A DNA stretch of 22,544 bases, taken from the IMG/VR virus record IMGVR_UViG_3300046513_000171; one strand, 5' to 3'. Shown one piece after another: positions 5,292 through 17,951 of the stretch. Position numbers and translations under genes: made by a program. Source of the DNA: an uncultured virus (IMG/VR IMGVR_UViG_3300046513_000171) (Duplodnaviria; Heunggongvirae; Uroviricota; Caudoviricetes). A model generated the notes under the pieces. The model did no database searches and was not told the DNA's origin. It saw only the letters and a program-made list of their open reading frames with translations. Position 1 is the stretch's first letter; every line of letters begins with the position of its first letter.

Positions 5292-5597
5292 AATATTCGC
5301 TTAGCCCTCCTGGGCCGTCAAAAAGGTAGGCACCTCCCAGAAAGAGGCGCAGGGGAAAAACACGATCACACAGAAAACAGCGGGGTCATTGCCGGGAGTG
5401 ACACCCAAAAAAGCAGGGGCGGGAGGCAATGCGAATACTATACTCTATTAATATCAAAAGAATAATAATAATAGAGTCTCTATGTTCGTGTGTCGCTGTG
5501 ATCCGATCGATGTTATTTCGCTGCGCGGTGCCAGATCGCTGCGAGTTTCGGAAATTTCCGAACGTCGAATCGGCCGCAAACCCTTGCTGGTAGCCAA

Positions 5598-6013
5598 TGC
5601 GCAAGTCGTGCGCAAGTCGTGCGCAAGTCAGAGAGTGTTGCTGAAAATGAGACAATATGGGCGAGTAATGGCATTATTCGTGCGAAACGTGGTCCATTAG
5701 CGCGAATTTTGCAATTATGCGAAATGCTCAATCGTCTCACGGCCACCGCTATGGCACGAGTATTACGACATTACTCGTGTTGTTTTCACGCCACACCGCG
5801 ACTTGCGCAAAATCGCCTCTGACTTGCGCAAATTTGTGTCAATTGTTCGTGCTAAAGCACTAAAAAAGCACGGTCGGACTGCGCAAGTCGCGATTACATC
5901 CCGCTTACAAAAGAACAATCCACTCCGCTTTCGGAAATTTCCGAAACAAACCACTCAGAAATTGCCGGAAACGAAGGAAACGACTTGCGCAAAGCCAATG
6001 CGCAAGTCGTTTC
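5598..6013. repeat. Cluster of eight TGCGCAAGTC motifs in non-coding DNA (iteron/operator-like)
   Basis: Plus-strand copies at 5598, 5609, 5620 (11-bp tandem), 5880, 5999; reverse copies GACTTGCGCA at 5800, 5821, 5982; 15-bp perfect inverted repeat 5977-5991/5999-6013. Confidence 0.9.
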
Positions 6014-6016
6014 TTC

Positions 6017-6163
6017 TCATCGGACGCTGCACCAGACCACGCCCCACGCGCCGCCCAGGAGCACGCCCGTCACACACGCGGCCGCAATCACCCACACGGT
6101 GTGATCGCCGTGCACGACGTACGCGGCGAGCTTCGGAAATTTCCGAAACAGGGTGCGCTTCAT
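6017..6163 (-). CDS. Small membrane protein, 48 aa (MKRTLFRKFPKLAAYVVHGDHTVWVIAAACVTGVLLGGAWGVVWCSVR)
   Basis: ATGA overlap with the upstream stop; C-terminal hydrophobic helix; palindrome encodes RKFP. Confidence 0.65.
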   Translation of the reverse strand: MKRTLFRKFPKLAAYVVHGDHTVWVIAAACVTGVLLGGAWGVVWCSVR

Positions 6164-6336
6164 CGCCCACCCCGCGAGATGTAATGACCGGCGATGAGAC
6201 GCTGCGCCGTCTTGCGCGCCATGAACATCATCGCGTCGCGGCCCCATGCGGTTGACATATGGGGAACGGACTTCAGCTGTGACGCGAGCAGCATCGCGTC
6301 GTCGGACTTGCCCTGTGCGTGCGGGATGGTTTTCAT
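6160..6336 (-). CDS. Hypothetical protein, 58 aa (MKTIPHAQGKSDDAMLLASQLK...)
   Basis: Translated by hand; GGAGAGG upstream; ATGA overlaps at both ends. Confidence 0.65.
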   Translation of the reverse strand: MKTIPHAQGKSDDAMLLASQLKSVPHMSTAWGRDAMMFMARKTAQRLIAGHYISRGGR

Positions 6337-6410
6337 TGCGCCTCTCCCGCCAGTTCACGCGCCGCCACTTCGTCGCTGTTCTCCAGCGCATACACCAGGT
6401 CATCAATCAC
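6333..6410 (-). CDS. Small acidic peptide, 25 aa (MIDDLVYALENSDEVAARELAGEAQ)
   Basis: GTG start after palindrome plus GAAGGAG with the same geometry as the larger genes; stop overlaps the next ATG. Confidence 0.6.
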   Translation of the reverse strand: MIDDLVYALENSDEVAARELAGEAQ

Positions 6411-8577: not shown

Positions 8578-9024
8578 ATGAAATTCTCCGACGACAACCT
8601 GTTCGATGAAGAGCCCGAGCTGCACCGCGTCGATTCGCGTGCGCAAGGGGTGATCGACATGATCAAGGAGCTGTCCGCCGAGGACCAGCTGCTGGTCATG
8701 ATGGCCACGCGCGCCATGAACCCGGTGCGCGCCGAGGACATCGACCTCGAACAGGAGATCGCCGAGCAGCTGCGCGCGGCCCAGTTCCTGATGACGGAAG
8801 TGCTCACCAGCAAGGCCAACACGACCAGCAAGACGAGCGCCCTGTCGGCCGTCTCGCGCGCGATCAAGCAGCTCACCGACCTGCAGGCGAAGACGTACAA
8901 CATCAACCGGCTGCGCGCACTGGAGAAGGCTCTCGTGACGACGCTGCACGGCCACCCGGATGGCGACGCGCTGCTCGCGCAGTGGCGCTCGACGTTCCAG
9001 CGCATGGTCCAGGCGGGCGTATGA
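8578..9024 (+). CDS. Helical phage protein, 148 aa; possible terminase small subunit
   Basis: Strong GC3-biased ORF; size, helical character and position next to the cos-like site suggest TerS, but no diagnostic motif. Confidence 0.45.
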   Translation: MKFSDDNLFDEEPELHRVDSRAQGVIDMIKELSAEDQLLVMMATRAMNPVRAEDIDLEQEIAEQLRAAQFLMTEVLTSKANTTSKTSALSAVSRAIKQLTDLQAKTYNINRLRALEKALVTTLHGHPDGDALLAQWRSTFQRMVQAGV

Positions 9025-9227
9025 CGCGAACGATTCACAACTGGCGTGTCGACTTTGCCAATGACTACCACTTCGTCGTGGTTGGCGATCAGCGCGACCT
9101 CTCACGCTACCTGCGCGTCGCTCACGACTTCGGCCATACGAGGATCATCCGCGCGTGGCGCGATGACGCTCCCGTGGACCTGCTACTCGACTTCCACAGC
9201 TGCGGCGTAACGGTGACCGAGAGATGA
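9021..9227 (+). CDS. Hypothetical protein, 68 aa (MTRTIHNWRVDF...)
   Basis: ATGA overlaps with both neighbours. Confidence 0.7.
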   Translation: MTRTIHNWRVDFANDYHFVVVGDQRDLSRYLRVAHDFGHTRIIRAWRDDAPVDLLLDFHSCGVTVTER

Positions 9228-9427
9228 ACGAGACCGAACTCAGCCTGCAGCGCGGGCTCACCACCCCCGAAGAGACGCTGCGCTTCTATGAGCAGCTCGC
9301 GATCCTCGATGGCGACCACAAGCGCGCCAAGGGCCTCGCCGACCGTATCGCCGCCAACCATTACCGCGTCCTGCTCGGCGACGCGTTCTTCCGTCGCCTG
9401 CACAACACATGGACATCCGGCCTATGA
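9224..9427 (+). CDS. Hypothetical protein, 67 aa
   Basis: ATGA overlaps with both neighbours; GC3-biased. Confidence 0.75.
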   Translation: MNETELSLQRGLTTPEETLRFYEQLAILDGDHKRAKGLADRIAANHYRVLLGDAFFRRLHNTWTSGL

Positions 9428-9756
9428 CCAAGCCACCCAGCAAGCCCACCAGACGCCACTACCCGCCCCGCGCGATCGGCGTCATCTCGGTACCCATCGC
9501 CCTCATACGCAGCATTTCCGAGCGCACGGGCATCGCCGAGGACGTGGTGCGCGTGGTGCTCGTCACCGCCCTCGAAGAAATCAAGACGGCCGCCCGCACC
9601 ACGCGCGTGACCTTCCGCAACTTCGGCACGTTCCAGTCGACCACGTACAAGGGCACCACGCGCGCGATGCCCAGCGACCCGAGCACACCCATTACCTTTC
9701 CCACCCGCCGCCGGCTGGTCCTCAAATCCGTGTCAGAACCAGAGGCGGATCAGTGA
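9424..9756 (+). CDS. HU/IHF-like histone-like DNA-binding protein, 110 aa
   Basis: LIRSISERTGI...VTFRNFGTF...P..ITFPTRRRLVLK matches the HU/IHF pattern; start moved to ATG 9424 (ATGA overlap). Confidence 0.8.
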   Translation: MTKPPSKPTRRHYPPRAIGVISVPIALIRSISERTGIAEDVVRVVLVTALEEIKTAARTTRVTFRNFGTFQSTTYKGTTRAMPSDPSTPITFPTRRRLVLKSVSEPEADQ

Positions 9757-9959
9757 TGGCGGCCTACGTGAAGGCGGGCGCCACGCTCTCCATCGAGATG
9801 CACCGTACCGACGGCACCAAGGTGACCCGGCAAGCCTACCTGATGCGCTTTGCCGGTCCCGAATCGCCTCACCTTCGCCGCGGCGAGGCCGAGGTGACGT
9901 GGGCCGACATGACCACCGAGATCGTGAAGATCGGCGATATCCCGGTACGTCAGCGTTAG
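9756..9959 (+). CDS. Hypothetical protein, 67 aa (MAAYVKAGATLSIEMH...)
   Basis: TGATG overlap, GAGG SD; C-terminal part of track ORF 9288-9959. Confidence 0.7.
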   Translation: MAAYVKAGATLSIEMHRTDGTKVTRQAYLMRFAGPESPHLRRGEAEVTWADMTTEIVKIGDIPVRQR

Positions 9960-9979
9960 TCCCTACGCGTTTTACGAAG

Positions 9980-10015
9980 AAAACGCCCGGATTTCAGCCA
10001 GATCCGGGCGTTTTT
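9980..10015. terminator. Intrinsic terminator, probably bidirectional
   Basis: AAAACGCCCGGAT / ATCCGGGCGTTTT arms with flanking A and T tracts. Confidence 0.85.
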
Positions 10016-10132
10016 CATTCAAAATCACAGCAACACGCCTCAAGAGCGGTGTGAAAGCGCACACAAAGCGCTATAAAAGTAGACAGACCCGGCCATACGG
10101 GCAGTCCCACCACCTGACCAGTGAGTATCCCC

Positions 10133-10309
10133 ATGATCGCAGACAAGACCACCTATACGCCCTGCCCGTGCGGTTGCCATGCCCGCGCACAGGCACACCT
10201 GAACCAGTACGCTGCCACACAGCCCCGCAGAACCCGATGTGCAGTCCGATGGCTGCTCATGGCGACGTCAATCGGGGCATTGATGCAGGCAGCCGTGACG
10301 CTGCTCTGA
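10133..10309 (+). CDS. Possible small membrane protein, 58 aa, with CPCGC motif
   Basis: ORF with hydrophobic C-terminus; weak SD. Confidence 0.35.
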   Translation: MIADKTTYTPCPCGCHARAQAHLNQYAATQPRRTRCAVRWLLMATSIGALMQAAVTLL

Positions 10310-10311
10310 GG

Positions 10312-10367
10312 CACACATATACACCCATACGCATATGCGCCCATACGTACATATAGGCGCATATGCC
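10312..10367. promoter_or_regulatory. CATA-repeat tract upstream of parA; candidate centromere/operator for the RHH protein
   Basis: CATA at 10316, 10326, 10332, 10342, 10350, 10360; CCCATACG at 10324 and 10340; palindrome CGCATATGCG at 10330-10339; position typical of type Ib par centromeres. Confidence 0.55.
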
Positions 10368-10444
10368 AGTCAGCATTGACACGGTTAACCTCCTATACTT
10401 CGTGGCGTAGTCCCCTACAACCCCACACGAACACCGGAGTAACC

Positions 10445-11113
10445 ATGCTGATAGCCGTCGCCACCCGCAAGGGCGGGGTGGGCAAGACCACTATTGCCAC
10501 CAATCTGGCCGTGCGCCGGGCGCAGGACTCGCCCGACGTCCACCTCGTCGATGCCGACCGCGATGAGTACGCGCACATGTTCGGACTGACGCGCCGCGAG
10601 AACAACATCACGCCGACCATCAGCCTGTCCAAAATGACGGGCAACATTTACCCCGACCTGATCGCCGCGCGCGCCGCGCACGAGACCGTGATCGTCGACG
10701 TCGGCGGCAAGCAGGCGCCCGAGATCGTCTACGCGGTGGGCGCCTGCGACGTGCTGGTGCTCCCGGTACGCGCCGGTCAGTACGACGCGTGGTCGCTGCA
10801 GGCTGCCGCGCGCATGGTCAGCGAGATGCGCGCGAACGGCAAGACCTTCCGCATCGTCCCCGTGATGAACGCGATCCCGCCGGAGAAGAACAGCTCGCTC
10901 ACGCGCATGATCGAGGCCGAGCTGAAGACGCTCACGGAGATCTTCGGCGAGCCCAGGGTGCGCATCGTCGAGCGCGTGGCGTTCGTGACCGCCTCGATCG
11001 GCGGCAAGGGCGTGTGCGAGCTGAAGCGCGGGCGCGACACGGCGTCGGCTATCGACGAGATGGAAGCGCTGTACCGGGAGGTGTTCGGTACCGTCGCGCC
11101 CGCGCGCGCGTGA
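10445..11113 (+). CDS. parA: ParA/ParF-type partition ATPase (type Ib, no N-terminal HTH), 222 aa
   Basis: Deviant Walker A KGGVGKTT at the N-terminus, LVDAD, VIVDVGG; start moved to ATG 10445 after GGAG. Confidence 0.93.
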   Translation: MLIAVATRKGGVGKTTIATNLAVRRAQDSPDVHLVDADRDEYAHMFGLTRRENNITPTISLSKMTGNIYPDLIAARAAHETVIVDVGGKQAPEIVYAVGACDVLVLPVRAGQYDAWSLQAAARMVSEMRANGKTFRIVPVMNAIPPEKNSSLTRMIEAELKTLTEIFGEPRVRIVERVAFVTASIGGKGVCELKRGRDTASAIDEMEALYREVFGTVAPARA

Positions 11114-11145
11114 TAACAGAAAACCCCCGTTTAAGGAGAATTTTT

Positions 11146-11412
11146 ATGACCAAGCCAGCAGCGTTCAGCGCGGTACCCGACGCGATCGAGCGGATGGCGC
11201 GCGAGGCAGCAGGGGAGAGCGAGGCGCCGACACAGGGCGGCCGCAAGCTCCCCGTGAAGGCCTCGACCAAGGCCATGAGCGTGAACATGCCCAAGGACGT
11301 CTACGACCGGCTGCGGGACTTCTGGAAGCTCACCGACATCCCCATGACCGACGTGATCGTGCAGGGGACGATCAAGGAGCTGGCCCGCCTGTCGAAAGAA
11401 CACGGCGTCTGA
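11146..11412 (+). CDS. ParG-like ribbon-helix-helix centromere-binding protein, 88 aa
   Basis: TAAGGAG SD; flexible N-terminus then AMSVNMPKDVYDRLRDF..TDIPMTDVI (RHH pattern); directly after parA. Confidence 0.8.
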   Translation: MTKPAAFSAVPDAIERMAREAAGESEAPTQGGRKLPVKASTKAMSVNMPKDVYDRLRDFWKLTDIPMTDVIVQGTIKELARLSKEHGV

Positions 11413-11862
11413 AACGCAACTAGCTGTCTGCCACCCCAAACGGGGACGAACAGACCGCTAGTTGCCTTTTCTGCAAAACCGCTTTTCAGGGGTAGGTGGT
11501 CCACCCGCGCCCGCCTGGGGACAGCCGGGTTGCCCACACTGGCGTGTGGACAATCGGCGAGCCGATTCCCCGCCTGACCACAGGCTCCCCACGAGCTTCG
11601 CCCTTCGGGCCTGACGCGCGCTTCGCGCTTGCCCCAGTGAGAGAGAAAGTCAAAATTCGAACCCCCGAAACCGTCGGTTAACCAACAATAAGAAAGGAGG
11701 TTCGTCCAGACCGCTGTAAGTCACTGTAAACGTTGGAAAATTCCGTCCCCGAAAGGGGTCACAGATGTCCCGAATAGGGGACACTGGAGTCACCATTGCG
11801 TAGAGGTGGATCAATGGTCTATAGTCCTGTCAAGGGACATCGACGTCCTTCTATGTGACAGG
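11413..11862. promoter_or_regulatory. Probable plasmid oriV / rep control region
   Basis: About 450 bp non-coding before rep; three imperfect palindromes GGG(A/T)C-N6-GTC(C/A)(C/T) at 11756, 11778, 11834. Confidence 0.65.
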
Positions 11863-12393
11863 ATGCAGCAGGTGAGGAACGCGAATTTGCCCGAATTGGG
11901 GACGCCCGAGACACACAAGCCTGACTTGGGTGGCTGGCTTCAAGTGGAGAAAAAGACCTTGCGCGCTATTACGCAACTCACCGTCAAGCACCCAGTCGCA
12001 GCCGGGATGCTGCACTTGCTGGCAAGCAAGATGAGCCGCACAAACGCGGTCGTTCTGAGCCATAAGGCCATTGCCGAAGAGCTGGGTGTCGTCGAGCGCA
12101 GCGTCAAGCGGGCGCTCGTGATCTTACGCGAAGGCAATTGGGTCGAGGTGCTCAAGGTCGGGACGACCAACGCGTACCGGATCAACTCGCGCGTCTACTG
12201 GCAAGGCGAACGCGGCAAACGGTTCGCCAGCTTCTACGCGGCGGTGTCGGTGCGTGAGGATGAGCAAGACCCGGGCGTCGTGGACAACCACGAACCGCTG
12301 CATCAGATCCCCGTTGCCGCGCCCGACGAGCGCGTTCTGGTGGGCAACGAACCGCTCGACCCTCCAGACCAGCAGGAGCTGTTTCTAGCATGA
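11863..12393 (+). CDS. rep: Plasmid replication initiator of the pBBR1 Rep / RepL-like HTH type; start uncertain (11806-11872)
   Basis: GWLQVEKK..HPVAAGMLHLLASKMSRTNAVVLSHKAIAEELG..RSVKRAL..L..GNW..AYRINSRVYW..FYAAVSV aligns by eye with recalled pBBR1 Rep (HWVQTERK..PTAAMLLHHLVAQMGHQNAVVVSQKTL..AYVVNDRVAW..FSAAVVV). Confidence 0.85.
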   Translation: MQQVRNANLPELGTPETHKPDLGGWLQVEKKTLRAITQLTVKHPVAAGMLHLLASKMSRTNAVVLSHKAIAEELGVVERSVKRALVILREGNWVEVLKVGTTNAYRINSRVYWQGERGKRFASFYAAVSVREDEQDPGVVDNHEPLHQIPVAAPDERVLVGNEPLDPPDQQELFLA

Positions 12394-12536
12394 TCGGGAT
12401 CAACGAGGCCGCCATTGACCAGCTCGTCACGAAGCAGGAACTGAAGCTGGCCGTCTCCGAACTCAAAAACACGATATGGGGCGCAGCGTTCAGCATCGTG
12501 CTCGCGCTCGGCATCCTCCAGCACTTCCTGCGCTGA
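12390..12536 (+). CDS. Small membrane-anchored coiled-coil peptide, 48 aa (MIGINEAAIDQLVTKQELKLAVSELKNTIWGAAFSIVLALGILQHFLR), miniature DUF1640-like
   Basis: Translated by hand; AGGAG SD; ATGA overlap with the rep stop. Confidence 0.7.
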   Translation: MIGINEAAIDQLVTKQELKLAVSELKNTIWGAAFSIVLALGILQHFLR

Positions 12537-12563
12537 CGTTGATAATTCGCTTTATGTAAAATC

Positions 12564-12585
12564 GGCCGCCGCGAAGGTGGCCTTT
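12564..12585 (+). terminator. Possible weak intrinsic terminator after the rep module
   Basis: GGCCGCC-GCGAA-GGTGGCC then TTT. Confidence 0.45.
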
Positions 12586-12590
12586 CATTG

Positions 12591-12619
12591 TCGACTATTG
12601 CTCAGCAGTCCTGCATAAT
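12591..12619 (+). promoter_or_regulatory. Possible sigma70 promoter TCGACT-17-CATAAT
   Basis: Correct spacing, 25 nt upstream of ATG 12645. Confidence 0.45.
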
Positions 12620-12644
12620 CGCGCCAAACCAGACAGGTGCGACC

Positions 12645-13061
12645 ATGACGACGCTCAAATACTCCCCCGGCCTGAAGAACCGCCAGCAGGACGCGATCAC
12701 GACGGAAGTCGGCGCGAACGGCTTCCTGAACTATTACGACGGCGCACAGCCGAACGATCCGACCGTCGCGATCACCACGCAGAACCTGCTCGTGCAGTTC
12801 GCGCTCGGCGCAGCGGTGGGCCCCGCATCGGTGAACGGCGTGCTGACAGCGGCGGCTATCGCCGACGGCGCAGGCAAGGCAGCGGCGGCCAGCGGCAAGA
12901 ACGCGACGTGGTTCAGCCTGACCAAGGCCGACGGCACGCGCGTGGTCGACGGCGGGCTCACGCAGACGGGCGGTGGCGGCGACATCACGATCGACAACCC
13001 GAACATCGCGCAGAACCAGGTGATCTCGGTCACGTCCCTCACCCTCACGAACCCGAACTGA
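12645..13061 (+). CDS. Putative virion structural protein, 138 aa
   Basis: Gly/Ala/Thr-rich beta-type sequence (YYDGAQP..LLVQFAL..ATWFSL..VDG..GGGGDITIDN..I..NQVISVTSLTLT) typical of small phage virion proteins; start moved to ATG 12645. Confidence 0.65.
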   Translation: MTTLKYSPGLKNRQQDAITTEVGANGFLNYYDGAQPNDPTVAITTQNLLVQFALGAAVGPASVNGVLTAAAIADGAGKAAAASGKNATWFSLTKADGTRVVDGGLTQTGGGGDITIDNPNIAQNQVISVTSLTLTNPN

Positions 13062-13068
13062 GGTCGCC

Positions 13069-13512
13069 ATGACCACGCCCATCGAGCGCATCGCGGGGAC
13101 CAACGTCGCCGTCACAGGCGCGAACGCCATCGCCACCAGCACCTACGCGAACGCTGCCGACAGGCTGCGCATCCAGAACACGAACAACTGGCTGCTGGCC
13201 GACTTCCGGCTCACGGGCGTCACGTTCGGCGCGGCGCCCGTGCAGGGCTCGCTCCAGATCGCCAAGGTGCCGCGCGACTTCGCAGGCAACCCAGGCCCCA
13301 CGCCCGTCAACGCGTCGATGGTGCCGCTGCAGGTGTACCCGCTCGGCCCCACGCCCGGCGCAGGCAACGCGGCAACAGGCTGGGTGATGTCGGCTGACGC
13401 CGTGCCGCTCGACCCGGATGCCGACTACTGGCTCTACAACAACAACACCGCGCAGACGCTGGCCGCGGGCTGGACGCTCACCGCGCAGCCGTGGTCGCCG
13501 GGGACGCCGTAA
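13069..13512 (+). CDS. Putative virion structural protein, 147 aa
   Basis: GAGG SD; Thr/Ala/Asn/Gly/Pro-rich, low charge; operonic. Confidence 0.6.
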   Translation: MTTPIERIAGTNVAVTGANAIATSTYANAADRLRIQNTNNWLLADFRLTGVTFGAAPVQGSLQIAKVPRDFAGNPGPTPVNASMVPLQVYPLGPTPGAGNAATGWVMSADAVPLDPDADYWLYNNNTAQTLAAGWTLTAQPWSPGTP

Positions 13513-14715
13513 ATGGGTGCGCGCCCGGATCTCGCGCAGTGGCTGTGGCCTGATGCCTGTCAGGGCCGCGCCCCCACGGGCGCGATCCAGCCCGACCGCA
13601 GCAACCCGCTGCTTGCCGGGCTCGCGGACATCATCGTGCCGAGCGACCCGAGCACCTACACGGCGGTGTACGGCACGGCCACGACGAAGCTCGACCCCGC
13701 AGGTCAGGCGTTCTCGGGACTCATGCGGTTGCAGGGCCGCAAGGGCGCGATCGTCACCGACAACGGCTACACGATCCTCGTGCTCATGCGCGTGCCGAAT
13801 CCGGCACCGGGCGGGCTGGTGGTGGCCGCGTCCATCGACGACAAGACGGGCGGCAGCACGCCGTGGATCGGCTGCAACGGTGGCAACGTGGCCGTCAGCA
13901 ACTCGGCCGTCGACTATGGGCCGGTGGCCGTCGCAAACGGGCTGTATGCCGCGCTCGGGGTCTACGCCGCGTTCGGCTTCACCTCCTACGTGAACGGCGA
14001 CCAGTACAGCAGCAACTCATTCACGGTGGGCGGCACGGCGACGTTGTGCCTGATGAACTACGCGAACTCGACGGGCTTCGGCTTCACGGGCAACGTACTG
14101 GCGGCGATTGCATGGAACCGGCCACTGACGACGGCTGAAGCGCGCGCGGTGACGGCGTCACCCGAGGCGGTGTTCTCGCTGCTGGGGCCGGCGCCGTTCG
14201 GCCTGCCTGTGCTCGTGCCACTCGCCCCGCGCGTGTCCAGCGGCACGTTGACGGCCACGCGCGGCACGGCGAGCGGTACCTCGCAAGCGCACAGCTCGGC
14301 GCAGGGCGCGCTCGCAGCAAGCGCCGCCACAGCGCAGGGCAACAGCGCAGCGCGCTCGCACTCGGCGGGTTCGCTCCACGTGGCGCCCCAGGTTGCGCAC
14401 GGCGTGGCGGCCGCGCGAGCCAGATCGAGCGCCAGCGCCGCCGCGCGCCGCGCGACAGCGTCCGGTACCGCGAGCGCAGGCAGCGCCTCACAGGGCCAGC
14501 CCGTCGCACGGCGCGGTACCAGTCAGGGCAGTGCCGCCGTGCACTCGACGTCGAGCGCGGTGCTCGTGGCGCGCGCCGGTATCTCGCGCGGTCGCTCAAG
14601 ATCGGGTGCCGCTGCACCGGACGAACCCGTCAACGACCCGAACCGGGTAGCGTTCCCCGCGCGCAAGAGCGCAGGCAACTTCCGACCACGCAACAGCAGA
14701 GCGAGATTCCAGTGA
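13513..14715 (+). CDS. Putative virion fibre/appendage protein with LamG/ConA-like lectin-type domain and Ala/Ser/Gly/Arg-rich repetitive C-terminus, 400 aa
   Basis: YTILVLMR..YVNG..FTGNVLAAIAWNRPLTTAEARA resembles the LamG-like C-terminal motif. Confidence 0.65.
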   Translation: MGARPDLAQWLWPDACQGRAPTGAIQPDRSNPLLAGLADIIVPSDPSTYTAVYGTATTKLDPAGQAFSGLMRLQGRKGAIVTDNGYTILVLMRVPNPAPGGLVVAASIDDKTGGSTPWIGCNGGNVAVSNSAVDYGPVAVANGLYAALGVYAAFGFTSYVNGDQYSSNSFTVGGTATLCLMNYANSTGFGFTGNVLAAIAWNRPLTTAEARAVTASPEAVFSLLGPAPFGLPVLVPLAPRVSSGTLTATRGTASGTSQAHSSAQGALAASAATAQGNSAARSHSAGSLHVAPQVAHGVAAARARSSASAAARRATASGTASAGSASQGQPVARRGTSQGSAAVHSTSSAVLVARAGISRGRSRSGAAAPDEPVNDPNRVAFPARKSAGNFRPRNSRARFQ

Positions 14716-15005
14716 GCAACGACACCGCCATCATGCTCGAACCGAAAGATCCGGCCGAGACCACCTACTACGTGTTCGACTTTTCCGCCCTGCTCGCGCC
14801 CGACGAGAGCATCGCGAACTACGTGCTGGAGCAGCCTGCCGAGCTGGTGCAGGTGAGCGACAGCAGCGACGGTCGCGCGGTCACCGCCTATTACTCGGGC
14901 GGCTTCGAGGGCAAGGTCTACCGCCCTCGCTGCAAGATCACGTCCGATTCGGCCACGCCCCAGGTGCTCGTGCGCAGCCTCGCATTCCGCTGCGAGAAGC
15001 GGTAA
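14712..15005 (+). CDS. Small virion adaptor-like protein (KDP-x-E...FDFS motif), 97 aa
   Basis: GTGA overlap; PKDPAETTYYVFDFSALL..ESI...SGG..GKVY..RCKITS is a pattern common in small phage structural proteins. Confidence 0.6.
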   Translation: MSNDTAIMLEPKDPAETTYYVFDFSALLAPDESIANYVLEQPAELVQVSDSSDGRAVTAYYSGGFEGKVYRPRCKITSDSATPQVLVRSLAFRCEKR

Positions 15006-15038
15006 ACTTCGGACTCCCAATAAATCTGCGGGGTCAAT

Positions 15039-15470
15039 ATGAACTCGACCACGGTTCTCGGTATCTTCTACTCGCTCGCCTTTGGCTACATCGGGTTCCT
15101 GTTCGCACGCGAGCGTGTTTACCGGCGGCGGCTCGAAGACCACCTGGCCAACATCCTCGCGGCGCGCTACGAGCATCCGGAGACGCTGGCCGAGCACCTG
15201 TCGGATGCGGAGGACGCGTTCGAAGAGATCCGCTACGTGGTCCTCAAGCGCCGCGTCAAGCAGATGGAAGACAGCTACTGGACGCGGTTCGGCAAGCGGC
15301 GCGGTGACGTGACCCCGCCCGGAGAAAGGGCCGCCGCGCTGGCGCAGTTCGTCGGCGCCGATGAGGACCGGATACTGCCCACGGAGGGTTGCTTCCGTTC
15401 GCAGGCCTGCTGCCGCGAGAAAGGACACGGCGGGCCGTGCGCCATCCCCCTCGATGGAGACACGAGATGA
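15039..15470 (+). CDS. Hypothetical protein with N-terminal TM helix and C-terminal Cys/His cluster, 143 aa
   Basis: ORF track; VLGIFYSLAFGYIGFLFA; CCREKGHGGPC. Confidence 0.75.
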   Translation: MNSTTVLGIFYSLAFGYIGFLFARERVYRRRLEDHLANILAARYEHPETLAEHLSDAEDAFEEIRYVVLKRRVKQMEDSYWTRFGKRRGDVTPPGERAAALAQFVGADEDRILPTEGCFRSQACCREKGHGGPCAIPLDGDTR

Positions 15471-15556
15471 ACCCCCTCATGATCGGCTGGTACCTGTACG
15501 CGATCTTTTTCACGCCGCGCCCGGTTCGCGACGTCCGTAAAACTGAGGACTCCTGA
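15467..15556 (+). CDS. Small peptide, 29 aa (MNPLMIGWYLYAIFFTPRPVRDVRKTEDS), translationally coupled to terL
   Basis: GGAG SD; ATGA overlap upstream, TGATG overlap with terL. Confidence 0.5.
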   Translation: MNPLMIGWYLYAIFFTPRPVRDVRKTEDS

Positions 15557-17286
15557 TGCCCAGCGGTCGCAAAGCCAACACCGAATGGGTGATGGATGAG
15601 TCGAGCCTGTTCGACCGCCTGCAGACGGCGGTCGGCACGAGCTTCTCGCACGACGCGGTCCCCAAGTGGATCGAAGAGAACACCTACATCAGCGGCAAGA
15701 ACTACAGCTTCGTCGACCACGAGTACCAGCTGAAGATCCTCGCCTCGCGCAAGCCCGAGCAGTACACGAAGAAGTGCTCGCAACTCGGGATCAGCGAGCT
15801 GAAGGTGCGGCGCGTGCTCTCGCTGTGCTACATGATCCCGCACTTCTCCGCGATCCTGACGCTGCCCACCTCGAACTTCGCCTCGATGTTCGCGAAGACC
15901 CGGATCGACCCGGTGATCCGCGAAAGTGAGCCTTTACGGGAGGCCGTCGTCGGCAACAACGACAGCACGGAGCTGAAGCAGATCGGCTCGTCACTGCTCT
16001 ATATCCGCGGCACGTTCACGCAGAACGCGGCGATCTCGGTACCGGCCGACATGCTGCTGCATGACGAGGTCGACTTCTCCGATCAGGACGCCCTCACCAG
16101 CTTCCAGTCGCGCCTGACGCACTCGAAGCTCAAATGGAAAATGAAGACGAGCACGCCGACCGTGCCGCGCTACGGGATCGACGATGAATTTGCGAACAGC
16201 AATCGCTGGTTTAATTTTGTCCGCTGCTGCCACTGCAACCACCAGTTCATCCCGAGCTACCAGGACCACGTGGTTGTCCCCGGCTTTCATGGCGACGTCT
16301 TCTCGCTGGACAAGACGAAGCTGCCACGCACGCGCTGGCGCGAGGCATACCTCGCCTGCCCGAAGTGCAAGAAGCGTCCTGACCTGAGACTCGACTTTCG
16401 CGAGTGGGTCTGCGAGAACCCGGACGAGCAGCACAACGCCGACGGCACGCAGCTCTCCCCTTTCGACGCGCCAGGCTTCATCAGCGTGCAGGATCTGCTG
16501 CTCTCGCGTACGGGCTACAAGCGGCTGACCGACTTCAAGAACTTCGGCCTCGGGCAGACCGACGAGGACGAGCTGAGCGGCATCCAGCAGGCCGACATCG
16601 ACCTCATGGAGATGGTCTACCTGCCGGGGCTCGTCGGCAGCGTGCTGGGCATCGACATGGGCACGACCTGCCACGTGTCGGAGTGCTACATCGACGCGGG
16701 CAACCACCTGATGCAGCGTCGCGTGCACCGTATCAACTACAAGGAGCTGGACGCCGAGCTGGACAAGATCGTCAAGCGCTGCAAGCCGATCGCGATGGTA
16801 ATGGACAGCCAGCCGTACACCGAGACGGTGTACCGCATGCAGCAGAAGTACAAGAACCTCTACGCGTCGGTCTATGTGAAGGCCAAGGGCATGCGGCCGT
16901 ACCGGATGCTCGACGAGGAAGAGGACCGGAGGGACGCCCTCTTCGACGAGCGGCAGATCAACGTCAACCGGAACATCGCGCTCGACTTCCTGATGGAAGA
17001 CATCCGCGCCGGCCTGATCGGCAACGACCCGATGCAACCTGACGAGGACCGGCAGGAGTTCCGCGACCACATGCGCGACATGCGCCGCGTGCGGCTGGCG
17101 GGCAACGCGAACGCGCCAGACACAGACGCGTACCAGTGGGTCAAGTCGAAGGTCGAGATCGACCACATGCACCACGCATTGCTTTATGCGTGGGTTGCCG
17201 CCAAGCTGCGCCTCGCCGCGCGCCCGGTGATCGCCGTGTCGAGCCTGGAGCTGATGAGCAAGCTGCGACTGAAGGCGCCGCTTTAA
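15556..17286 (+). CDS. terL: Terminase large subunit, GpA (lambda-like) type, 576 aa
   Basis: KKCSQLGISE (Walker A variant), LLHDEVD (Walker B), STPT motif, CxxC pairs, C-terminal nuclease GIDMG and DHMHHA. Confidence 0.92.
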   Translation: MPSGRKANTEWVMDESSLFDRLQTAVGTSFSHDAVPKWIEENTYISGKNYSFVDHEYQLKILASRKPEQYTKKCSQLGISELKVRRVLSLCYMIPHFSAILTLPTSNFASMFAKTRIDPVIRESEPLREAVVGNNDSTELKQIGSSLLYIRGTFTQNAAISVPADMLLHDEVDFSDQDALTSFQSRLTHSKLKWKMKTSTPTVPRYGIDDEFANSNRWFNFVRCCHCNHQFIPSYQDHVVVPGFHGDVFSLDKTKLPRTRWREAYLACPKCKKRPDLRLDFREWVCENPDEQHNADGTQLSPFDAPGFISVQDLLLSRTGYKRLTDFKNFGLGQTDEDELSGIQQADIDLMEMVYLPGLVGSVLGIDMGTTCHVSECYIDAGNHLMQRRVHRINYKELDAELDKIVKRCKPIAMVMDSQPYTETVYRMQQKYKNLYASVYVKAKGMRPYRMLDEEEDRRDALFDERQINVNRNIALDFLMEDIRAGLIGNDPMQPDEDRQEFRDHMRDMRRVRLAGNANAPDTDAYQWVKSKVEIDHMHHALLYAWVAAKLRLAARPVIAVSSLELMSKLRLKAPL

Positions 17287-17393
17287 ACGGCGCGTTCTGT
17301 CCCTTACAGCGTGTATCCGTCGGTAACAAGTGTGGCCGATCCTCGCGCGCTGGCAAAGAATGCGGATTCCGTCCCGCCCAACTGGAGCGAGCC

Positions 17394-17615
17394 ATGTCCG
17401 CCATCGAACGTCTCGACGCGGCCCTCAAGGACTTCCGCCACTCTCTGGAGCTGCTCGACGAGCCTGGCCACTTTGCCGGGGTCGTCCACCAGCGCCCTGC
17501 CACTGCCCGCCGGCTGCACCTGGTGCGCGTGATGCTGCGCGCCGAGCGCGGCGTACCGAACACTGAACCCGACTACAACCCGGCGTACTTCGTCGACGAG
17601 TTGGTTCGCCACTAG
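17394..17615 (+). CDS. Hypothetical protein, 73 aa (MSAIERLDAALKDF...)
   Basis: GGAG SD; ATG 17394 inside track ORF 17136-17615. Confidence 0.65.
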   Translation: MSAIERLDAALKDFRHSLELLDEPGHFAGVVHQRPATARRLHLVRVMLRAERGVPNTEPDYNPAYFVDELVRH

Positions 17616-17648
17616 CAACCCCCAATCACTTTGGTCGAGTGATTTTTC

Positions 17649-17679
17649 AAGCCCGTGAATAACCTTCACGGGCTTTTTT
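17649..17679 (+). terminator. Intrinsic terminator
   Basis: AAGCCCGTGAA / TTCACGGGCTT stem followed by a T tract. Confidence 0.88.
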
Positions 17680-17695
17680 CATTTTGCTCTGGTGT

Positions 17696-17724
17696 TTGAC
17701 AGACTTCATCAGGACGTCTAATCT
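17696..17724 (+). promoter_or_regulatory. Sigma70 promoter TTGACA-17-TAATCT
   Basis: Perfect -35, 17-bp spacer, -10 with the conserved TA---T; just after a terminator. Confidence 0.75.
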
Positions 17725-17730
17725 CCGGGT

Positions 17731-17939: not shown

Positions 17940-17951
17940 GGTGGTCATTTC

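What the first reader, a model, noticed from the sequence alone, without database searches (positions are those of the whole stretch)
10312..12585. Small-plasmid pBBR1-type replicon and type Ib partition cassette embedded among phage packaging and virion genes
Seen: parA, an RHH gene, about 450 bp of non-coding DNA and an HTH initiator that aligns by eye to pBBR1 Rep, bounded by terminator-like hairpins (9980-10015, 12564-12585) and placed between the terS-like/HU operon and the virion genes. Established: pBBR1 is a small broad-host-range plasmid, whereas the classic phage-plasmids P1 and N15 use other initiators and type Ia ParAB/SopAB. Inference: a phage lineage became a phage-plasmid by capturing a compact plasmid module.
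Basis: partly seen in the sequence, partly recalled or inferred. Interest (0 to 1): 0.75.

Follow-up and report, generated by a model that had tools for sequence, protein, structure and literature searches.

The report
Phage-plasmid with swappable pBBR1-type replicon
An uncultured soil phage carries a plasmid partition operon and a replication initiator related to that of the small plasmid pBBR1, and its closest relatives keep the same slot but hold other initiators, so this looks like a phage that lives as a plasmid and trades its replication cartridge.

Summary
Window 10312-12585 contains centromere-like repeats, a small ParA (10445-11113), an 88-aa probable ribbon-helix-helix gene (11146-11412), about 460 bp of non-coding origin-like DNA and a winged-helix initiator (11872-12393). 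The initiator is 37% identical to pBBR1 Rep (E 7e-27). Hairpins flank the block.

The lineage did not become a phage-plasmid by capturing this module.
- All five relatives that cover the slot (TerL 87-100%) already have ParA plus the small gene there, with other initiators. Three were scanned and are Rep_3. L014, 97-99% identical to the window, has a RepL-like Rep plus a GIY-YIG gene.
- The window differs from L014 by one 741-bp cartridge (two 22-bp-spaced iterons plus rep) in place of 1,276 bp.
- Both alleles occur in the same rhizosphere metagenome runs.
- An 85-kb relative rated complete has a siphovirus-like tail, its own replisome genes and no integrase.

The same cassette occurs on other phage backbones, and Burkholderia phage FLC5 carries this Rep type where its relative KS14 has Rep_3. 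Best reading: a phage-plasmid lineage with an exchangeable initiator-specificity cartridge. It is a new member of a known kind. Replication and plasmid state are untested.

The parts
9980..10019 (+). Hairpin with a T run (terminator-like in both directions) that closes the upstream HU-like operon
   Evidence: I10: 13-nt arms, 100% complementary.: -24.3 kcal/mol, z -7.27, 0 of 200 shuffles fold as well.
10121..10309 (+). Small conserved ORF (62 aa) with a PCPCGC motif and a hydrophobic C-terminal tail, just upstream of the par region. Function unknown.
   Evidence: translation. Homologous ORFs at the same place in L016 (4167-4364) and L019 (2089-2337). Only a weak DUF6527 hit, E 0.028.
10315..10366 (+). 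Centromere- or operator-like repeats upstream of parA: three copies of about 17 bp, the last two forming an 18-nt inverted repeat
   Evidence: D1/I1. Repeat clusters stand upstream of parA in 6 of 6 loci examined. By my reading of the printed copies, a CATACG/CGTATG-like core is shared by five of them; in L016 the copies read GTATGTAC and CGTACG, a looser match.
10445..11113 (+). parA: small Walker-type partition ATPase (222 aa), deviant Walker A KGGVGKTT at residues 9-16, no N-terminal DNA-binding domain
   Evidence: CbiA E 1.5e-10, match starts at residue 3; phrog_164 E 1.9e-25. NF041546 E 4.7e-31, 107.9 bits against a cut-off of 180. K9 G10 G11 G13 K14 invariant.
11146..11412 (+). Probable ribbon-helix-helix centromere-binding protein (88 aa): disordered N-terminal tail, short extended segment, two helices
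   Evidence: conserved C-terminal M(S/T)VNMPK...ELA block in 6 loci. AF2 model with H50-63 and H67-86 at pLDDT 87-89, residues 1-43 low confidence; no Foldseek hit at E<=0.001, but many weak rows are RHH proteins (Arc, CopG, pCXC100 ParB 3no7, MazE, ORF56); weak support for binding ParA.
11412..11475 (+). Long stem-loop followed by TTTTCT, after the par operon. Terminator-like, and conserved even in relatives with other ParA and Rep types.
   Evidence: I4.: -32.8 kcal/mol, z -6.22. GAAACGCAACTAGC.GTC core conserved in L014, L016, L018 and L010; 11408-11486 is one of few stretches alignable to L016/L018.
11533..11553 (+). Inverted repeat CCACAC-N4-GTGTGG that contains TGTGGACAA, one mismatch from the DnaA-box complement (consensus recalled, not from a call)
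   Evidence: Read. The aligned position in relatives reads ATGGATAAC...GTGTGGAC. The same feature lies upstream of L014-type rep genes in L032/L033. pBBR1 ori has GTGGATATGTGGAC and CGTGGACAA.
11611..11653 (+). Conserved distal-origin element: CTGAC, a short G+C hairpin with compensatory stem changes, then TTGCCCC..TGAGAGAGAAAG. It ends exactly at the left breakpoint of the swap.
   Evidence: stem sequences differ but pair in 6 of 6 aligned rows, by my reading; the pattern occurs in 12 of 34 loci (L003-L011, L014/L031, L032). Variants in L033 and L034. pBBR1 has CTGCGCGCTTCGCTTGCC at about 1236-1255.
11655..12395 (+). The exchanged cartridge (741 bp): A-rich stretch, two iterons, rep promoter region and rep. 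In L014 it is replaced by 1,276 bp.
   Evidence: window-L014 homology runs 8812-11086, 11150-11654 and 12396-19467. table 5: an X10 contig joins 11654 to 12396 with 1,276 other letters between.
11680..11732 (+). A-rich block AACCAACAATAAGAAAGGAG and CTGTAA(N4)CTGTAAACG, conserved among pBBR1-type replicons on phage contigs. Candidate unwinding or host-factor region (inferred).
   Evidence: invariant columns across 6 loci.
11745..11784 (+). Two tandem 18-bp iteron-like repeats, 22 bp start to start (GTCCCCGAAAGGGGTCAC and GTCCCGAATAGGGGACAC), each with internal dyad symmetry
   Evidence: D3/I17; motif found 4 times against 0.01 expected (the pattern was derived from these same sites). Relatives have two 22-bp-spaced repeats of a different sequence at the aligned place. 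A third copy lies at 11890-11903 inside the 5' end of rep. A fourth, at 11434-11447, lies in the hairpin shared with L014 and is probably not Rep-specific.
11872..12393 (+). rep: pBBR1-family initiator. Single winged-helix domain (about residues 22-112 of the 173-aa form) plus a disordered C-terminal tail ending in a conserved motif. Other possible starts are 11806 (GTG), 11863 (ATG) and 11887 (TTG).
   Evidence: 37% identity to pBBR1 Rep, E 7e-27; 248 PLSDB records, best E 3e-31, on 2.5-5 kb plasmids annotated RepL or replication initiation protein. Pfam RepL 19.4 bits (cut-off 20.3), while relatives P0003, P0006 and FLC5 ORF44 are above it; winged-helix model, Foldseek prob 1.00 to ArsR/SmtB/CodY/TubR folds at E about 3e-3.
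12390..12536 (+). 5'-truncated remnant (48 aa) of a small CCDC90/DUF1640-like membrane-tail gene, the scar of the right breakpoint. Its ATG overlaps the rep stop codon.
   Evidence: 46 of 48 aa identical to the C-terminus of L014's 73-aa ORF (3985-4206); residues 3-54 of the L014 ORF, including the part missing here, align to the paralog at window 957-1328 (E 2e-8).
12564..12590 (+). Terminator-like hairpin before the virion genes
   Evidence: 7 pairs, 6 G-C, T-rich tail.: -15.2 kcal/mol, z -2.65.

Best explanation
The block is the plasmid-maintenance module of a phage-plasmid. It belongs to an uncultured rhizosphere/soil phage lineage of about 85 kb with a siphovirus-like tail and its own replisome genes.

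Inferred mechanism, partition: the 88-aa ribbon-helix-helix protein binds the repeats at 10315-10366 and works with the small ParA to segregate a low-copy circular prophage (type Ib partition).

Inferred mechanism, replication: the pBBR1-family winged-helix Rep binds the two dyad-symmetric iterons at 11745-11784, and probably a third site over its own 5' end for autoregulation. It then opens the adjacent A-rich DNA and recruits host replication proteins. The upstream DnaA-box-like inverted repeat and the conserved hairpin element are expected to help. The phage's own polymerase, primase and helicases would serve lytic growth.

Shown by comparison: the initiator is exchangeable.
- Relatives keep the par genes and the distal origin at the same slot but carry Rep_3 or another RepL-like initiator.
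- The window differs from a 97-99% identical sibling only by a 741-bp iteron-plus-rep cartridge. Its left edge is the end of an origin element shared by both replicon types.
- Both alleles coexist in the same samples.

So the pBBR1-type unit is one allele of a replicon-specificity cartridge in a lineage that was already a phage-plasmid.
For: Homology of Rep:
- 37% identity over 164 aa to pBBR1 Rep, E 7e-27. pBBR1 record identified.
- 248 PLSDB records match, 61 of them over at least 80% of the query. The best are on 2.5-5 kb plasmids annotated RepL or replication initiation protein.
- Homologs include Paracoccus pMOS2 and pMARC3. In PMC3832669, the passages returned by term searches (they include part of the section on pAES7, pMARC3 and pMOS2) describe this Rep group as initiators, with two iteron-like repeats of 18-39 bp in oriV and a pAES7 REP shuttle plasmid that replicates in Alphaproteobacteria.
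- A 46%-identical copy sits on a 3.9-kb Caballeronia contig labelled cov 2435.

Origin anatomy:
- Two 18-bp repeats 22 bp apart, about 90-130 bp upstream of the candidate rep starts.
- The same layout with other repeat sequences occurs in 5 related loci, in FLC5 and in pBBR1, which has three 17-bp repeats.

Cassette conservation:
- parA, the small gene, a gap and rep lie in this order in 9 of 9 related IMG/VR loci, L003-L011. The five of them scanned (L005, L008-L011) have other phage backbones.

Slot conservation with swapped initiators:
- Of 8 TerL-related loci, 5 cover the slot. 5 of 5 have ParA plus the small gene, and 0 of 5 have the pBBR1-type Rep.
- L016 and L019 Reps are Rep3_N plus Rep3_C, E about 1e-34.
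- L017's Rep is phrog_4402. L018 has the same layout but its Rep was not scanned.
- L014 has a 212-aa RepL/RP-C-like Rep with its own 22-bp-spaced repeats.

Breakpoints and reality of the swap:
- Breakpoints at 11654/11655 and 12395/12396.
- One X10 contig carries the alternative form, while the same run also holds window-type rep contigs. X9 shows both forms too.
- An X11 contig bridges 11508-11744 in the window form.
- L002 from another sample carries rep joined to the virion genes.

Lifestyle:
- The 85,240-bp relative (CheckV 100%) is circularly permuted relative to the window.
- It has a tape-measure protein, J-like tail protein, DNA polymerase, primase, helicases, ligase and ThyA.
- PF00589 was found in 0 of 5 records and PF00239 in 0 of 4.

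Precedents:
- KS14 is a plasmid prophage by miniprep. It has RepB next to the portal gene, plus ParA (PMC3091744, passages).
- FLC5, of the same genus, has the pBBR1-type Rep at that place, plus ParA.

ParA with the small protein: ipSAE 0.56 against a best control of 0.00, verdict 'weak support'. The mark was reached by 116 of 157 solved complexes and 2 of 215 mismatches. At 0.60 or under it was reached by only 18 of the 157 and by both mismatches. Runs agree in at least 32% of contacts, and partner pLDDT is at least 64.
Against: - Nothing here shows replication, copy number or an extrachromosomal state. All function is inferred from homology and layout.
- The window's own genome is not held. 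Only 22.5 kb of a probable 85 kb was seen, so an integrase elsewhere in this particular phage is not excluded.
- No recognisable lysogeny repressor was found in relatives: HTH_3 in 0 of 3 records, Peptidase_S24 in 0 of 3. A temperate lifestyle is therefore unproven.
- The window Rep scores just under Pfam's RepL cut-off (19.4 against 20.3 bits) and has no NCBIfam hit.
- The RHH assignment has no significant fold match and no sequence match in PDB.
- No promoter was called for parA or rep by the consensus scan.
- IMG/VR classes the 85-kb record as linear, with no end repeats, and its ends do not overlap.
- The direction of the swap is ambiguous. The truncated small gene says the pBBR1-type cartridge arrived by cutting it. 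The GIY-YIG gene in the alternative cartridge could instead make that one the invader.
Confidence: 0.75

Rival explanations
1. One reading: an ordinary (integrating or lytic) phage lineage became a phage-plasmid by capturing the whole compact parA-RHH-ori-rep module from a small pBBR1-like plasmid.
For: - Rep's nearest non-phage relatives are on small plasmids.
- The parA-to-rep cassette recurs as a unit on other phage backbones.
- On the tree, phage-borne Reps form one clade and FLC5's Rep nests separately among small-contig Reps, so transfer between plasmids and phages did occur.
Against: - 5 of 5 lineage relatives that cover the slot already have par genes plus another initiator there.
- The sibling L014 shares parA (99%), the small gene (96.5%) and the distal origin up to 11654, and differs only in the 741-bp cartridge.
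- pBBR1 itself carries no par genes in the record seen, which has 1 annotated CDS.
Confidence: 0.1
2. The cassette is a phage replication origin used during lytic or induced growth, as P1 uses RepL/oriL. It is not a plasmid-maintenance replicon, and the phage is not maintained as a plasmid.
For: - No repressor was recognised in relatives.
- The block sits among late genes.
- P1 shows that a phage can carry an HTH initiator for lytic replication (annotation).
Against: - A complete small-ParA operon with upstream repeats accompanies rep in every relative. That serves segregation, not lytic growth.
- The lineage has its own polymerase, primase and helicases.
- Rep is not detectably related to P1 RepL (E 0.24).
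- Homologs are the sole replication gene of small plasmids.
Confidence: 0.1
3. The HTH protein is a transcription regulator, not an initiator, and the repeats are its operators. Only the par genes are plasmid-like.
For: - The fold is a generic winged helix, and the best structural matches are repressors of the ArsR/SmtB/CodY kind.
- The Pfam score is below the cut-off.
- One motif copy overlaps the gene's own 5' end.
Against: - Full-length similarity to pBBR1 Rep extends beyond the helix-turn-helix.
- The family is annotated as, and in Paracoccus was used as, the replication module.
- At the same slot relatives carry bona fide Rep_3 initiators, which argues that the slot holds an initiator.
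Confidence: 0.04
4. Assembly artefact: a small plasmid and a phage were chimerically joined in a metagenome assembly.
For: The sequence comes from metagenomes. Assembly graphs break at 11650-11662 in run X8 and at 11654 in X9.
Against: - The right junction is present in an independent contig, L002.
- The left junction is bridged by an X11 contig covering 11508-11744.
- 8 of 19 listed runs hold at least 92% of the sampled words of 11350-12650. Seven of these are flagged as possible sources and all may belong to one campaign.
- The graph breaks are explained by two co-occurring alleles.
Confidence: 0.01

Closest known systems
pBBR1 replicon (Bordetella bronchiseptica plasmid pBBR1, NC_025015.1) and its relatives on small proteobacterial plasmids, such as Paracoccus pMOS2, pMARC3 and pAES7
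   Same: - The Rep proteins are homologous: 37% identity, E 7e-27.
- Both have a single winged-helix region that hits HTH_36/RepL weakly.
- In both, the origin lies upstream of rep, with an A-rich stretch and 17-18-bp iteron-like repeats that have internal dyads.
- Both share the GCGCTTCGC(N)TTGCC hairpin element and GTGGA-type boxes.
   Different: - Here the replicon sits in an ~85-kb-class phage genome and is coupled to a par operon. The pBBR1 record shows only rep.
- Iteron sequence and spacing differ: 22 bp here against 25 bp.
- Rep identity is modest, and on the tree pBBR1 and pMOS2 are a distant outgroup to the phage clade (long branches flagged by the tool).
Burkholderia phages KS14 and FLC5 (Kisquattuordecimvirus, P2-like)
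   Same: - KS14 is a phage maintained as a plasmid prophage, with ParA and a plasmid Rep next to the packaging genes (PMC3091744 passages).
- FLC5 ORF44, annotated hypothetical, is 48% identical to the window's Rep and FLC5 has ParA.
- The genus shows the same alternation: Rep_3 in KS14, CEP1 and FLC10, pBBR1-type in FLC5.
   Different: - These are 32-kb myoviruses with unrelated virion genes.
- On the tree, FLC5's Rep does not fall inside the window clade and sits among small-contig Reps, which suggests a separate acquisition.
- KS14 encodes a serine recombinase, as stated in the paper's conclusions.
SSU5-like and P1-like phage-plasmids of enterobacteria
   Same: - These are large phage genomes that combine virion genes with a plasmid rep and par. 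That SSU5 is a siphovirus carrying its own replication genes is recalled, not from a call.
- P1 subgroup 1 has two alternative replicase families at the same position, IncY and p0111 (PMC7969092 passage).
- P1 RepA is Rep_3, as in L016, L017 and L019.
   Different: - There is no detectable sequence relation of virion genes: megablast found none, and the best TerL match is 30% to ~80-kb Vibrio phages.
- Partition here is small ParA plus a small non-HTH protein. P1 has parA and parB CDSs of 1,197 and 1,002 bp, that is, a large type Ia ParA/ParB pair.
- The window's initiator is pBBR1-type, which the papers seen do not report in phage-plasmids. A search for 'phage-plasmid' plus 'pBBR1' returned 6 papers. 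By title and abstract, none describes a natural pBBR1-type phage-plasmid.
Modular chimeric replicons of Pseudomonas plasmids (Bardaji et al. 2017, PMC5304414)
   Same: The idea that a replicon is built of exchangeable control and initiator modules that recombine in nature. From that paper I saw only the search listing's title and abstract start and two discussion passages. [quoted passage not shown]
   Different: Different Rep families, and those are plasmids only. Here the exchanged unit is iterons plus rep, with the distal origin and par retained, inside a phage.

Membership tests
pBBR1-type (HTH_36/RepL-like) plasmid initiators | Significant full-length sequence similarity to pBBR1 Rep | tested here: met
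   60/164 identical, E 7e-27, covering residues 30-189 of the 195-aa ORF; tblastn E 1e-18 to NC_025015.1.
pBBR1-type (HTH_36/RepL-like) plasmid initiators | Single winged-helix DNA-binding domain recognised by Pfam RepL/HTH_36 models | tested here: inconclusive
   The window Rep scores RepL 19.4 bits against a cut-off of 20.3. Close relatives P0003 (26.4), P0006 (22.6) and FLC5 ORF44 (26.4) pass. pBBR1 Rep itself is below both cut-offs (HTH_36 23.7 against 25; RepL 14.8). The AF2 model shows one winged helix with pLDDT 70-92, and Foldseek gives prob 1.00 to wHTH repressors.
pBBR1-type (HTH_36/RepL-like) plasmid initiators | Origin with iteron-like direct repeats just upstream of rep | tested here: met
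   Two 18-bp repeats at 11745 and 11767. The same layout occurs in 5 related loci, FLC5 and pBBR1. Paracoccus relatives are described with 2 such repeats (PMC3832669, passage).
pBBR1-type (HTH_36/RepL-like) plasmid initiators | rep plus ori suffice for autonomous replication | not testable with these tools
   Needs cloning on a non-replicating vector.
Type Ib partition system (small ParA plus small RHH centromere-binding protein, ParF/ParG-like) | ParA of about 200-230 aa with a deviant Walker A and no N-terminal HTH domain | tested here: met
   222 aa. The Pfam CbiA match starts at residue 3. KGGVGKTT lies at residues 9-16, and K9 G10 G11 G13 K14 are invariant. The size criterion is from general knowledge of the class.
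Type Ib partition system (small ParA plus small RHH centromere-binding protein, ParF/ParG-like) | Partner is a small ribbon-helix-helix protein with a flexible N-terminal tail | tested here: inconclusive
   The model has a disordered 1-43, a short extended segment and two confident helices. Many weak Foldseek rows are RHH proteins but none reaches E<=0.001. There is no Pfam, PHROG, NCBIfam or PDB sequence hit.
Type Ib partition system (small ParA plus small RHH centromere-binding protein, ParF/ParG-like) | Repeated centromere or operator site next to the operon | tested here: met
   Three repeats at 10315-10366. Repeat clusters lie upstream of parA in 6 of 6 loci. Binding was not tested.
Type Ib partition system (small ParA plus small RHH centromere-binding protein, ParF/ParG-like) | ParA and partner interact | tested here: inconclusive
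   verdict 'weak support', score 0.56, best of 3 controls 0.00. The mark was reached by 116 of 157 solved complexes and 2 of 215 mismatches. At 0.60 or under it was reached by 18 of the 157 and both mismatches. Contact agreement is at least 32% and partner pLDDT at least 64. Solved ParF-ParG-like pairs may inform the model.
Phage-plasmid | One replicon carries virion and packaging genes together with plasmid replication and partition genes | tested here: met
   (window). (85-kb relative with a full virion set, ParA and Rep_3).
Phage-plasmid | No integration machinery, and maintained extrachromosomally | tested here: inconclusive
   No integrase or recombinase hit among 36 window ORFs. PF00589 in 0 of 5 and PF00239 in 0 of 4 related records, including one rated complete. 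The episomal state is not testable here, and the window's own full genome was not seen.
Phage-plasmid | Temperate control (repressor or immunity) | tested here: not met
   HTH_3 in 0 of 3 and Peptidase_S24 in 0 of 3 related records. No repressor appears among the PHROG hits. Most early genes have no family, so absence is weak evidence.
Rep_3 (iteron WH1-WH2 initiators: P1 RepA, KS14 gp37) | Rep3_N and Rep3_C domains | tested here: not met
   The window Rep has no Rep3 hit at E<=1. In contrast L016 and L019 Reps hit at E about 1e-34/1e-15 and P1 RepA at 1.6e-5.
P1 RepL (lytic replicon initiator) | Sequence similarity to P1 RepL | tested here: not met
   best BLASTP E 0.24 over 43 aa.

The most novel reading that the evidence does not exclude
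The iteron-plus-Rep unit behaves as a population-level 'incompatibility cartridge'. Co-circulating, otherwise near-identical phage-plasmids carry different initiator and iteron specificities behind one shared distal origin (a DnaA-box-like inverted repeat plus a covarying hairpin that is also present in pBBR1). Recombination at that conserved element, possibly driven by the GIY-YIG nuclease in the alternative cartridge, switches replicon specificity. Siblings could then co-reside in one cell or escape replication-based exclusion. The same pBBR1-type/Rep_3 alternation in the unrelated KS14/FLC5 genus would make this a general feature of Burkholderiales phage-plasmids.
Probability: 0.3. Interest if true: 0.7.

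Novelty: new member of a known kind. Interest (0 to 1): 0.5.

Why it matters
Phage-plasmids are increasingly seen as a bridge for gene flow between phages and plasmids, but they are known mostly from enterobacteria.

This finding adds an uncultured soil/rhizosphere lineage. It shows that the widely used pBBR1 replicon type also lives in phages, including the published phage FLC5, where the gene is annotated hypothetical.

It also provides a clean natural experiment: two genomes 97-99% identical over the flanking regions, apart from a second 63-bp indel at the parA/RHH junction, that differ by one iteron-plus-rep cartridge and coexist in the same samples. That makes replicon-specificity switching, and the role of the poorly characterised distal part of the pBBR1 origin, directly testable with short cloned fragments.

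Tried and rejected
- Megablast of the whole window against 50,697 phage records found no match.
- No TerL relatives were found in 185,579 species-representative genomes, so no isolate host or episomal contig was found. The host is only guessed as Burkholderiales, from GC content and the Rep relatives in Paraburkholderia, Caballeronia and Burkholderia phage.
- No tRNA and no Rfam family at gathering level. Four chance-level hits appear at E 0.2-0.74. An att-like tRNA fragment or a known copy-control RNA in the gap is therefore not supported.
- A PDB sequence search with the small-protein profile and the Rep profile gave nothing below E 0.06.
- I considered that the L014-type Rep is a distant homolog of the pBBR1-type Rep. 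BLASTP gives E 0.024 over 45 aa. hhalign gives probability 21%, E 0.001 over 43 columns. The question is left open.
- A parA promoter read by eye (TTGACA at 10375) has a 12-nt spacer to TATACT and was not called by the scan, so I dropped it.
- CCATACG alone is not enriched in the window: 4 found against 1.97 expected.
- I read PMC5304414, PMC6579772 and preprint 10.1101/2025.10.16.682956 (passages only) looking for a family assignment of pBBR1 Rep. None is given. The preprint notes three 18-bp putative iterons in pBBR1.

Full report
**Observation**

Frames in this 62% G+C window were chosen by third-position GC.
- On the + strand from 8.5 kb the gene order is: a 148-aa ORF, two small ORFs, an HU-like gene (9409-9756; PF00216 E 8e-6), a 67-aa ORF, a strong hairpin with a T run (9980-10014) and a 62-aa ORF (10121-10309).
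- The block under study follows, and then the virion and packaging genes. These are phrog_3758 at 12645-13061, a GP4 gp77-like adaptor at 14712-15005, TerL at 15556-17286, portal at 17880-19745 and an S49 protease at 19749-20762.
- The block itself runs as follows. There are three repeats of about 17 bp at 10315-10366. parA is at 10445-11113, and an 88-aa gene at 11146-11412. About 460 bp of non-coding DNA follow. The initiator ORF ends at 12393, and a public gene call of 173 aa starts at GTG 11872. A 48-aa ORF (12390-12536) and a terminator-like hairpin (12564-12582) complete it.

The 'terS-like' label for 8578-9024 could not be verified.

**Is the initiator pBBR1-like?**

Yes.
- tblastn against PLSDB found 248 records, 61 of them covering at least 80% of the query. 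The best are 2.5-5 kb plasmids of Salmonella, Shigella, E. coli, Acetobacter, Aeromonas and Paracoccus, annotated 'replication/maintenance protein RepL' or 'plasmid replication initiation protein' (E down to 3e-31).
- One hit is NC_025015.1, which the record names as Bordetella bronchiseptica plasmid pBBR1. BLASTP to its Rep CDS gives 37% identity over 164 aa, E 7e-27.
- Pfam places both proteins at the edge of RepL/HTH_36. The window Rep scores 19.4 bits on RepL against a cut-off of 20.3, and pBBR1 Rep scores 23.7 on HTH_36 against 25. Closer relatives of the window Rep pass RepL.
- The Paracoccus plasmids pMOS2 and pMARC3 are also hits. In PMC3832669 I read section 15 in full and the passages returned by term searches, which include part of the section on pAES7, pMARC3 and pMOS2. 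Those passages treat this group as initiators with HTH_36. They describe oriVs with two iteron-like repeats of 18-39 bp, in pMOS2 overlapped by inverted repeats. They also report REP-carrying shuttle plasmids, including one from pAES7, that replicate in Alphaproteobacteria.
- A 46%-identical copy lies on a 3.9-kb Caballeronia contig whose title gives coverage 2435.
- The AF2 model built from 14 family members has one confident winged-helix domain (about residues 22-112), a disordered N-terminus and a roughly 60-aa disordered tail. Foldseek finds only generic winged-helix repressors at E about 3e-3.
- The protein is not Rep_3 (no hit at E<=1) and not detectably related to P1 RepL (E 0.24).

**Origin anatomy**

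Two 18-bp repeats with internal dyad symmetry begin at 11745 and 11767, 22 bp apart.
- A degenerate motif made from them occurs 4 times in the window against 0.01 expected, all within 470 bp on one strand. The pattern was derived from these sites, so this is descriptive rather than an independent test.
- A third copy lies at 11890-11903, in the first codons of rep. The fourth (11434-11447) lies in a hairpin shared with a sibling that has another Rep, so it is probably not Rep-specific.

Aligning the gap with five related loci shows one architecture:
- an inverted repeat containing a DnaA-box-like word (11533-11553; the consensus is recalled, not from a call);
- a block made of CTGAC, a short G+C hairpin and TTGCCCC..TGAGAGAGAAAG (11611-11653). 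The hairpin's stem letters differ between loci but still pair (by my reading);
- an A-rich block (11680-11699) and TGTAAACG;
- two 22-bp-spaced repeats whose sequence differs between the window and its 74-80% identical Rep relatives;
- then rep.

pBBR1 has a comparable layout. An A-rich run precedes three 17-bp repeats about 100-170 bp upstream of rep. Further upstream are GTGGA-type boxes and the word GCGCTTCGCTTGCC, which is nearly identical to the L011 version of the hairpin block.

**Partition genes**

- ParA is 222 aa with KGGVGKTT at residues 9-16 and no extra N-terminal domain.
- The 88-aa protein has no family hit. Its C-terminal 45 residues are conserved in six loci.
- Its model has a short extended segment plus two helices after a disordered tail.
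- No structural match reaches significance, although many of the weak rows are ribbon-helix-helix proteins.
- Repeat clusters lie upstream of parA in 6 of 6 loci. By my reading of the printed copies, five of the six share a CATACG/CGTATG-like core and L016 is a looser match.
- A complex prediction of ParA with the small protein gave 'weak support': score 0.56 against a best control of 0.00. The mark was reached by 116 of 157 solved complexes and 2 of 215 mismatches. At 0.60 or under it was reached by only 18 of the 157 and by both mismatches. Runs agree in at least 32% of contacts, and partner pLDDT is at least 64.

I read this as a type Ib-like system, with the RHH identity probable but not shown.

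**The cassette elsewhere**

A search of IMG/VR with Rep gave ten loci.
- L002 is the same phage, 100% identical, and runs from within rep into TerL.
- In 9 of 9 others (L003-L011) parA, the small gene, a gap and rep lie in the same order. Rep is 74-80% identical, while ParA is only 28-64% identical.
- The five I scanned (L005, L008-L011) have different phage backbones, with baseplate and tail-fibre genes, endolysin, Erf, SSB, a DnaC-like loader, or a primase-helicase and a DarB-like giant protein.
- Among cultured phages only Burkholderia phage FLC5 has a clear homolog (48%, ORF44 'hypothetical protein', next to the portal gene). FLC5 also has ParA.
- Its genus-mate KS14 was shown by plasmid preparation to be a plasmid prophage. 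It has a RepB-type initiator next to the portal gene, plus ParA (PMC3091744, passages). KS14, CEP1 and FLC10 carry Rep_3 there.
- On a maximum-likelihood tree of 21 Reps, the seven phage-contig Reps including the window form one clade (95/91). FLC5's Rep nests separately among Reps from 1-10 kb contigs. pBBR1 and pMOS2 form a long-branched outgroup (midpoint root, long-branch warnings given by the tool).

**The window's own lineage**

A search with TerL gave eight loci at 87-100% identity.
- Five cover the slot between the HU-like gene and the virion genes. All five have ParA and the small gene there, and none has the pBBR1-type Rep.
- L016 and L019 carry Rep3_N plus Rep3_C initiators (E about 1e-34). 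L017's is phrog_4402, 'replication initiation protein'. L018 has the same layout but I did not scan its Rep.
- L014 is 97-99% identical to the window over 10.6 kb. It has ParA at 99% and the small gene at 96.5%.
- From window position 11655 to 12395, L014 holds 1,276 different bases. These comprise its own pair of 22-bp-spaced repeats and a 212-aa Rep that passes Pfam RepL (25 bits) and touches RP-C. They also hold a 134-aa GIY-YIG gene and the first 27 codons of a 73-aa gene.
- The window's 48-aa ORF is the 3' part of that 73-aa gene (46 of 48 aa identical). The missing part is genuine, because it aligns to a paralog at window 957-1328 (E 2e-8). Arrival of the pBBR1-type cartridge therefore truncated this gene at some point.
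- The GIY-YIG gene could, conversely, make the other cartridge an invader, so I leave the direction of the most recent event open.
- L014-type Reps on other contigs (L032-L034) lie behind the same distal origin architecture, again with a hairpin of different but pairing letters. Both Rep kinds thus share the distal origin, and the left breakpoint (11654/11655) falls exactly at its end.
- Whether the two Rep kinds are distant homologs is unresolved.

**Is the swap real?**

- The 1,301-bp stretch 11350-12650 is held by 19 listed runs of rhizosphere or soil metagenomes, and 8 of them hold at least 92% of its sampled words. Seven of those are flagged as possible sources, and all may be one campaign.
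- I laid contigs of four runs that were not flagged as sources.
- In X10, one 3,560-bp contig (depth 13.7) joins 11654 to 12396 with 1,276 letters between, which is the L014 form. Contigs identical to the window's rep (depth 5-6.7) are present in the same run.
- In X9, a contig ends its match at 11654 and continues with the L014-type letters, while another covers 11858-13000 in the window form.
- In X11, a 237-bp contig bridges 11508-11744 in the window form.

Both alleles therefore coexist in the same samples, and the window is not a chimera.

**Lifestyle**

- The record behind L017 is 85,240 bp and is rated 100% complete by CheckV. Its two ends fall between the HU-like gene and parA, which are adjacent in the window and in L016, L018 and L019. 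The map is therefore circular or circularly permuted.
- It encodes a tape-measure protein, tail chaperones, a J-like tail protein and an endolysin. It also encodes a family-A-like DNA polymerase, primase, two helicases, ligase, SbcCD-like proteins, ThyA and a dNMP kinase.
- No tyrosine integrase (0 of 5 records) or serine recombinase domain (0 of 4) was found in lineage records. None was found among 36 window ORFs.
- Against a confident 'temperate' call, no HTH_3 or S24 repressor was found (0 of 3 each), and most early genes have no family.

**Comparison and novelty**

- The element works like known phage-plasmids: virion genes plus a plasmid rep and par, with no integrase.
- Alternative replicases at one position are already reported for P1-like elements (PMC7969092, passage).
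- In the library searched I found no report of a natural phage-plasmid with a pBBR1-type replicon. A search for 'phage-plasmid' plus 'pBBR1' returned 6 papers, which I judged by title and abstract only. The FLC5 paper's text contains none of the words plasmid, ParA or replication.
- I did not read supplementary tables of the phage-plasmid surveys, and these may list such replicases.

I file this as a new member of a known kind. Its added value is a clean, naturally co-occurring cartridge polymorphism and a shared distal-origin element that also occurs in pBBR1.

Noticed in passing
window 10121-10309; L016 4167-4364; L019 2089-2337: A small ORF with a PCPCGC motif and a hydrophobic C-terminal tail is conserved just upstream of the par region in three sub-lineages that have different ParA and Rep types. 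Function unknown.
   Followed up: partly
L014 3584-3988: A 134-aa GIY-YIG nuclease gene (PF01541 E 3.4e-6) sits inside the alternative 1,276-bp rep cartridge. A homing-type nuclease there could drive cartridge replacement.
   Followed up: no
window 12220-12393 (Rep C-terminus); alignment A4: The Rep family has a predicted disordered tail that ends in an almost invariant ER.LVGNE.LDPPDQQE(M/L).L(P/A) motif. From memory it resembles short clamp- or helicase-recruiting peptides. Not tested.
   Followed up: no
window 11412-11475; L016 5774-5852; L018 4642-4720; L010 7318-7380: The long hairpin after the small gene, with a GAAACGCAACTAGC.GTC core, is more conserved at the DNA level than the flanking par genes, across loci with different ParA and Rep. 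It may be more than a terminator.
   Followed up: partly
window 957-1328 (-) and 12390-12536 (+): These are two paralogous CCDC90/DUF1640-like small genes. The second is a 5'-truncated copy at the cartridge junction.
   Followed up: yes
window 5001-6000: A G+C dip to 0.52 with short divergent ORFs (5482-5700 +, 5803-6255 +, 6017-6406 -) between the leftward and rightward gene blocks. It is a possible regulatory or immunity region. No family hits.
   Followed up: no
window 14712-15005: A domain like the fibre-tail adaptor gp77 of podophage GP4 (PF23148 E 3.4e-12), in a lineage whose complete relative has siphovirus-type tail genes (tape measure, chaperones, J).
   Followed up: no
L001 1292-1801 (Burkholderia phage FLC5 ORF44): This gene is annotated 'hypothetical protein' but is a pBBR1-family Rep. 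It is 48% identical to the window's Rep and scores 26.4 bits on RepL. It has two pairs of 22-bp-spaced repeats upstream.
   Followed up: partly
window 11087-11149 vs L014 2274-2282: A second small difference between the siblings: a 63-bp segment at the parA/RHH junction in the window replaces 9 bp in L014. It changes the ParA C-terminus. Both forms are seen in runs X8-X10 (table 5).
   Followed up: partly
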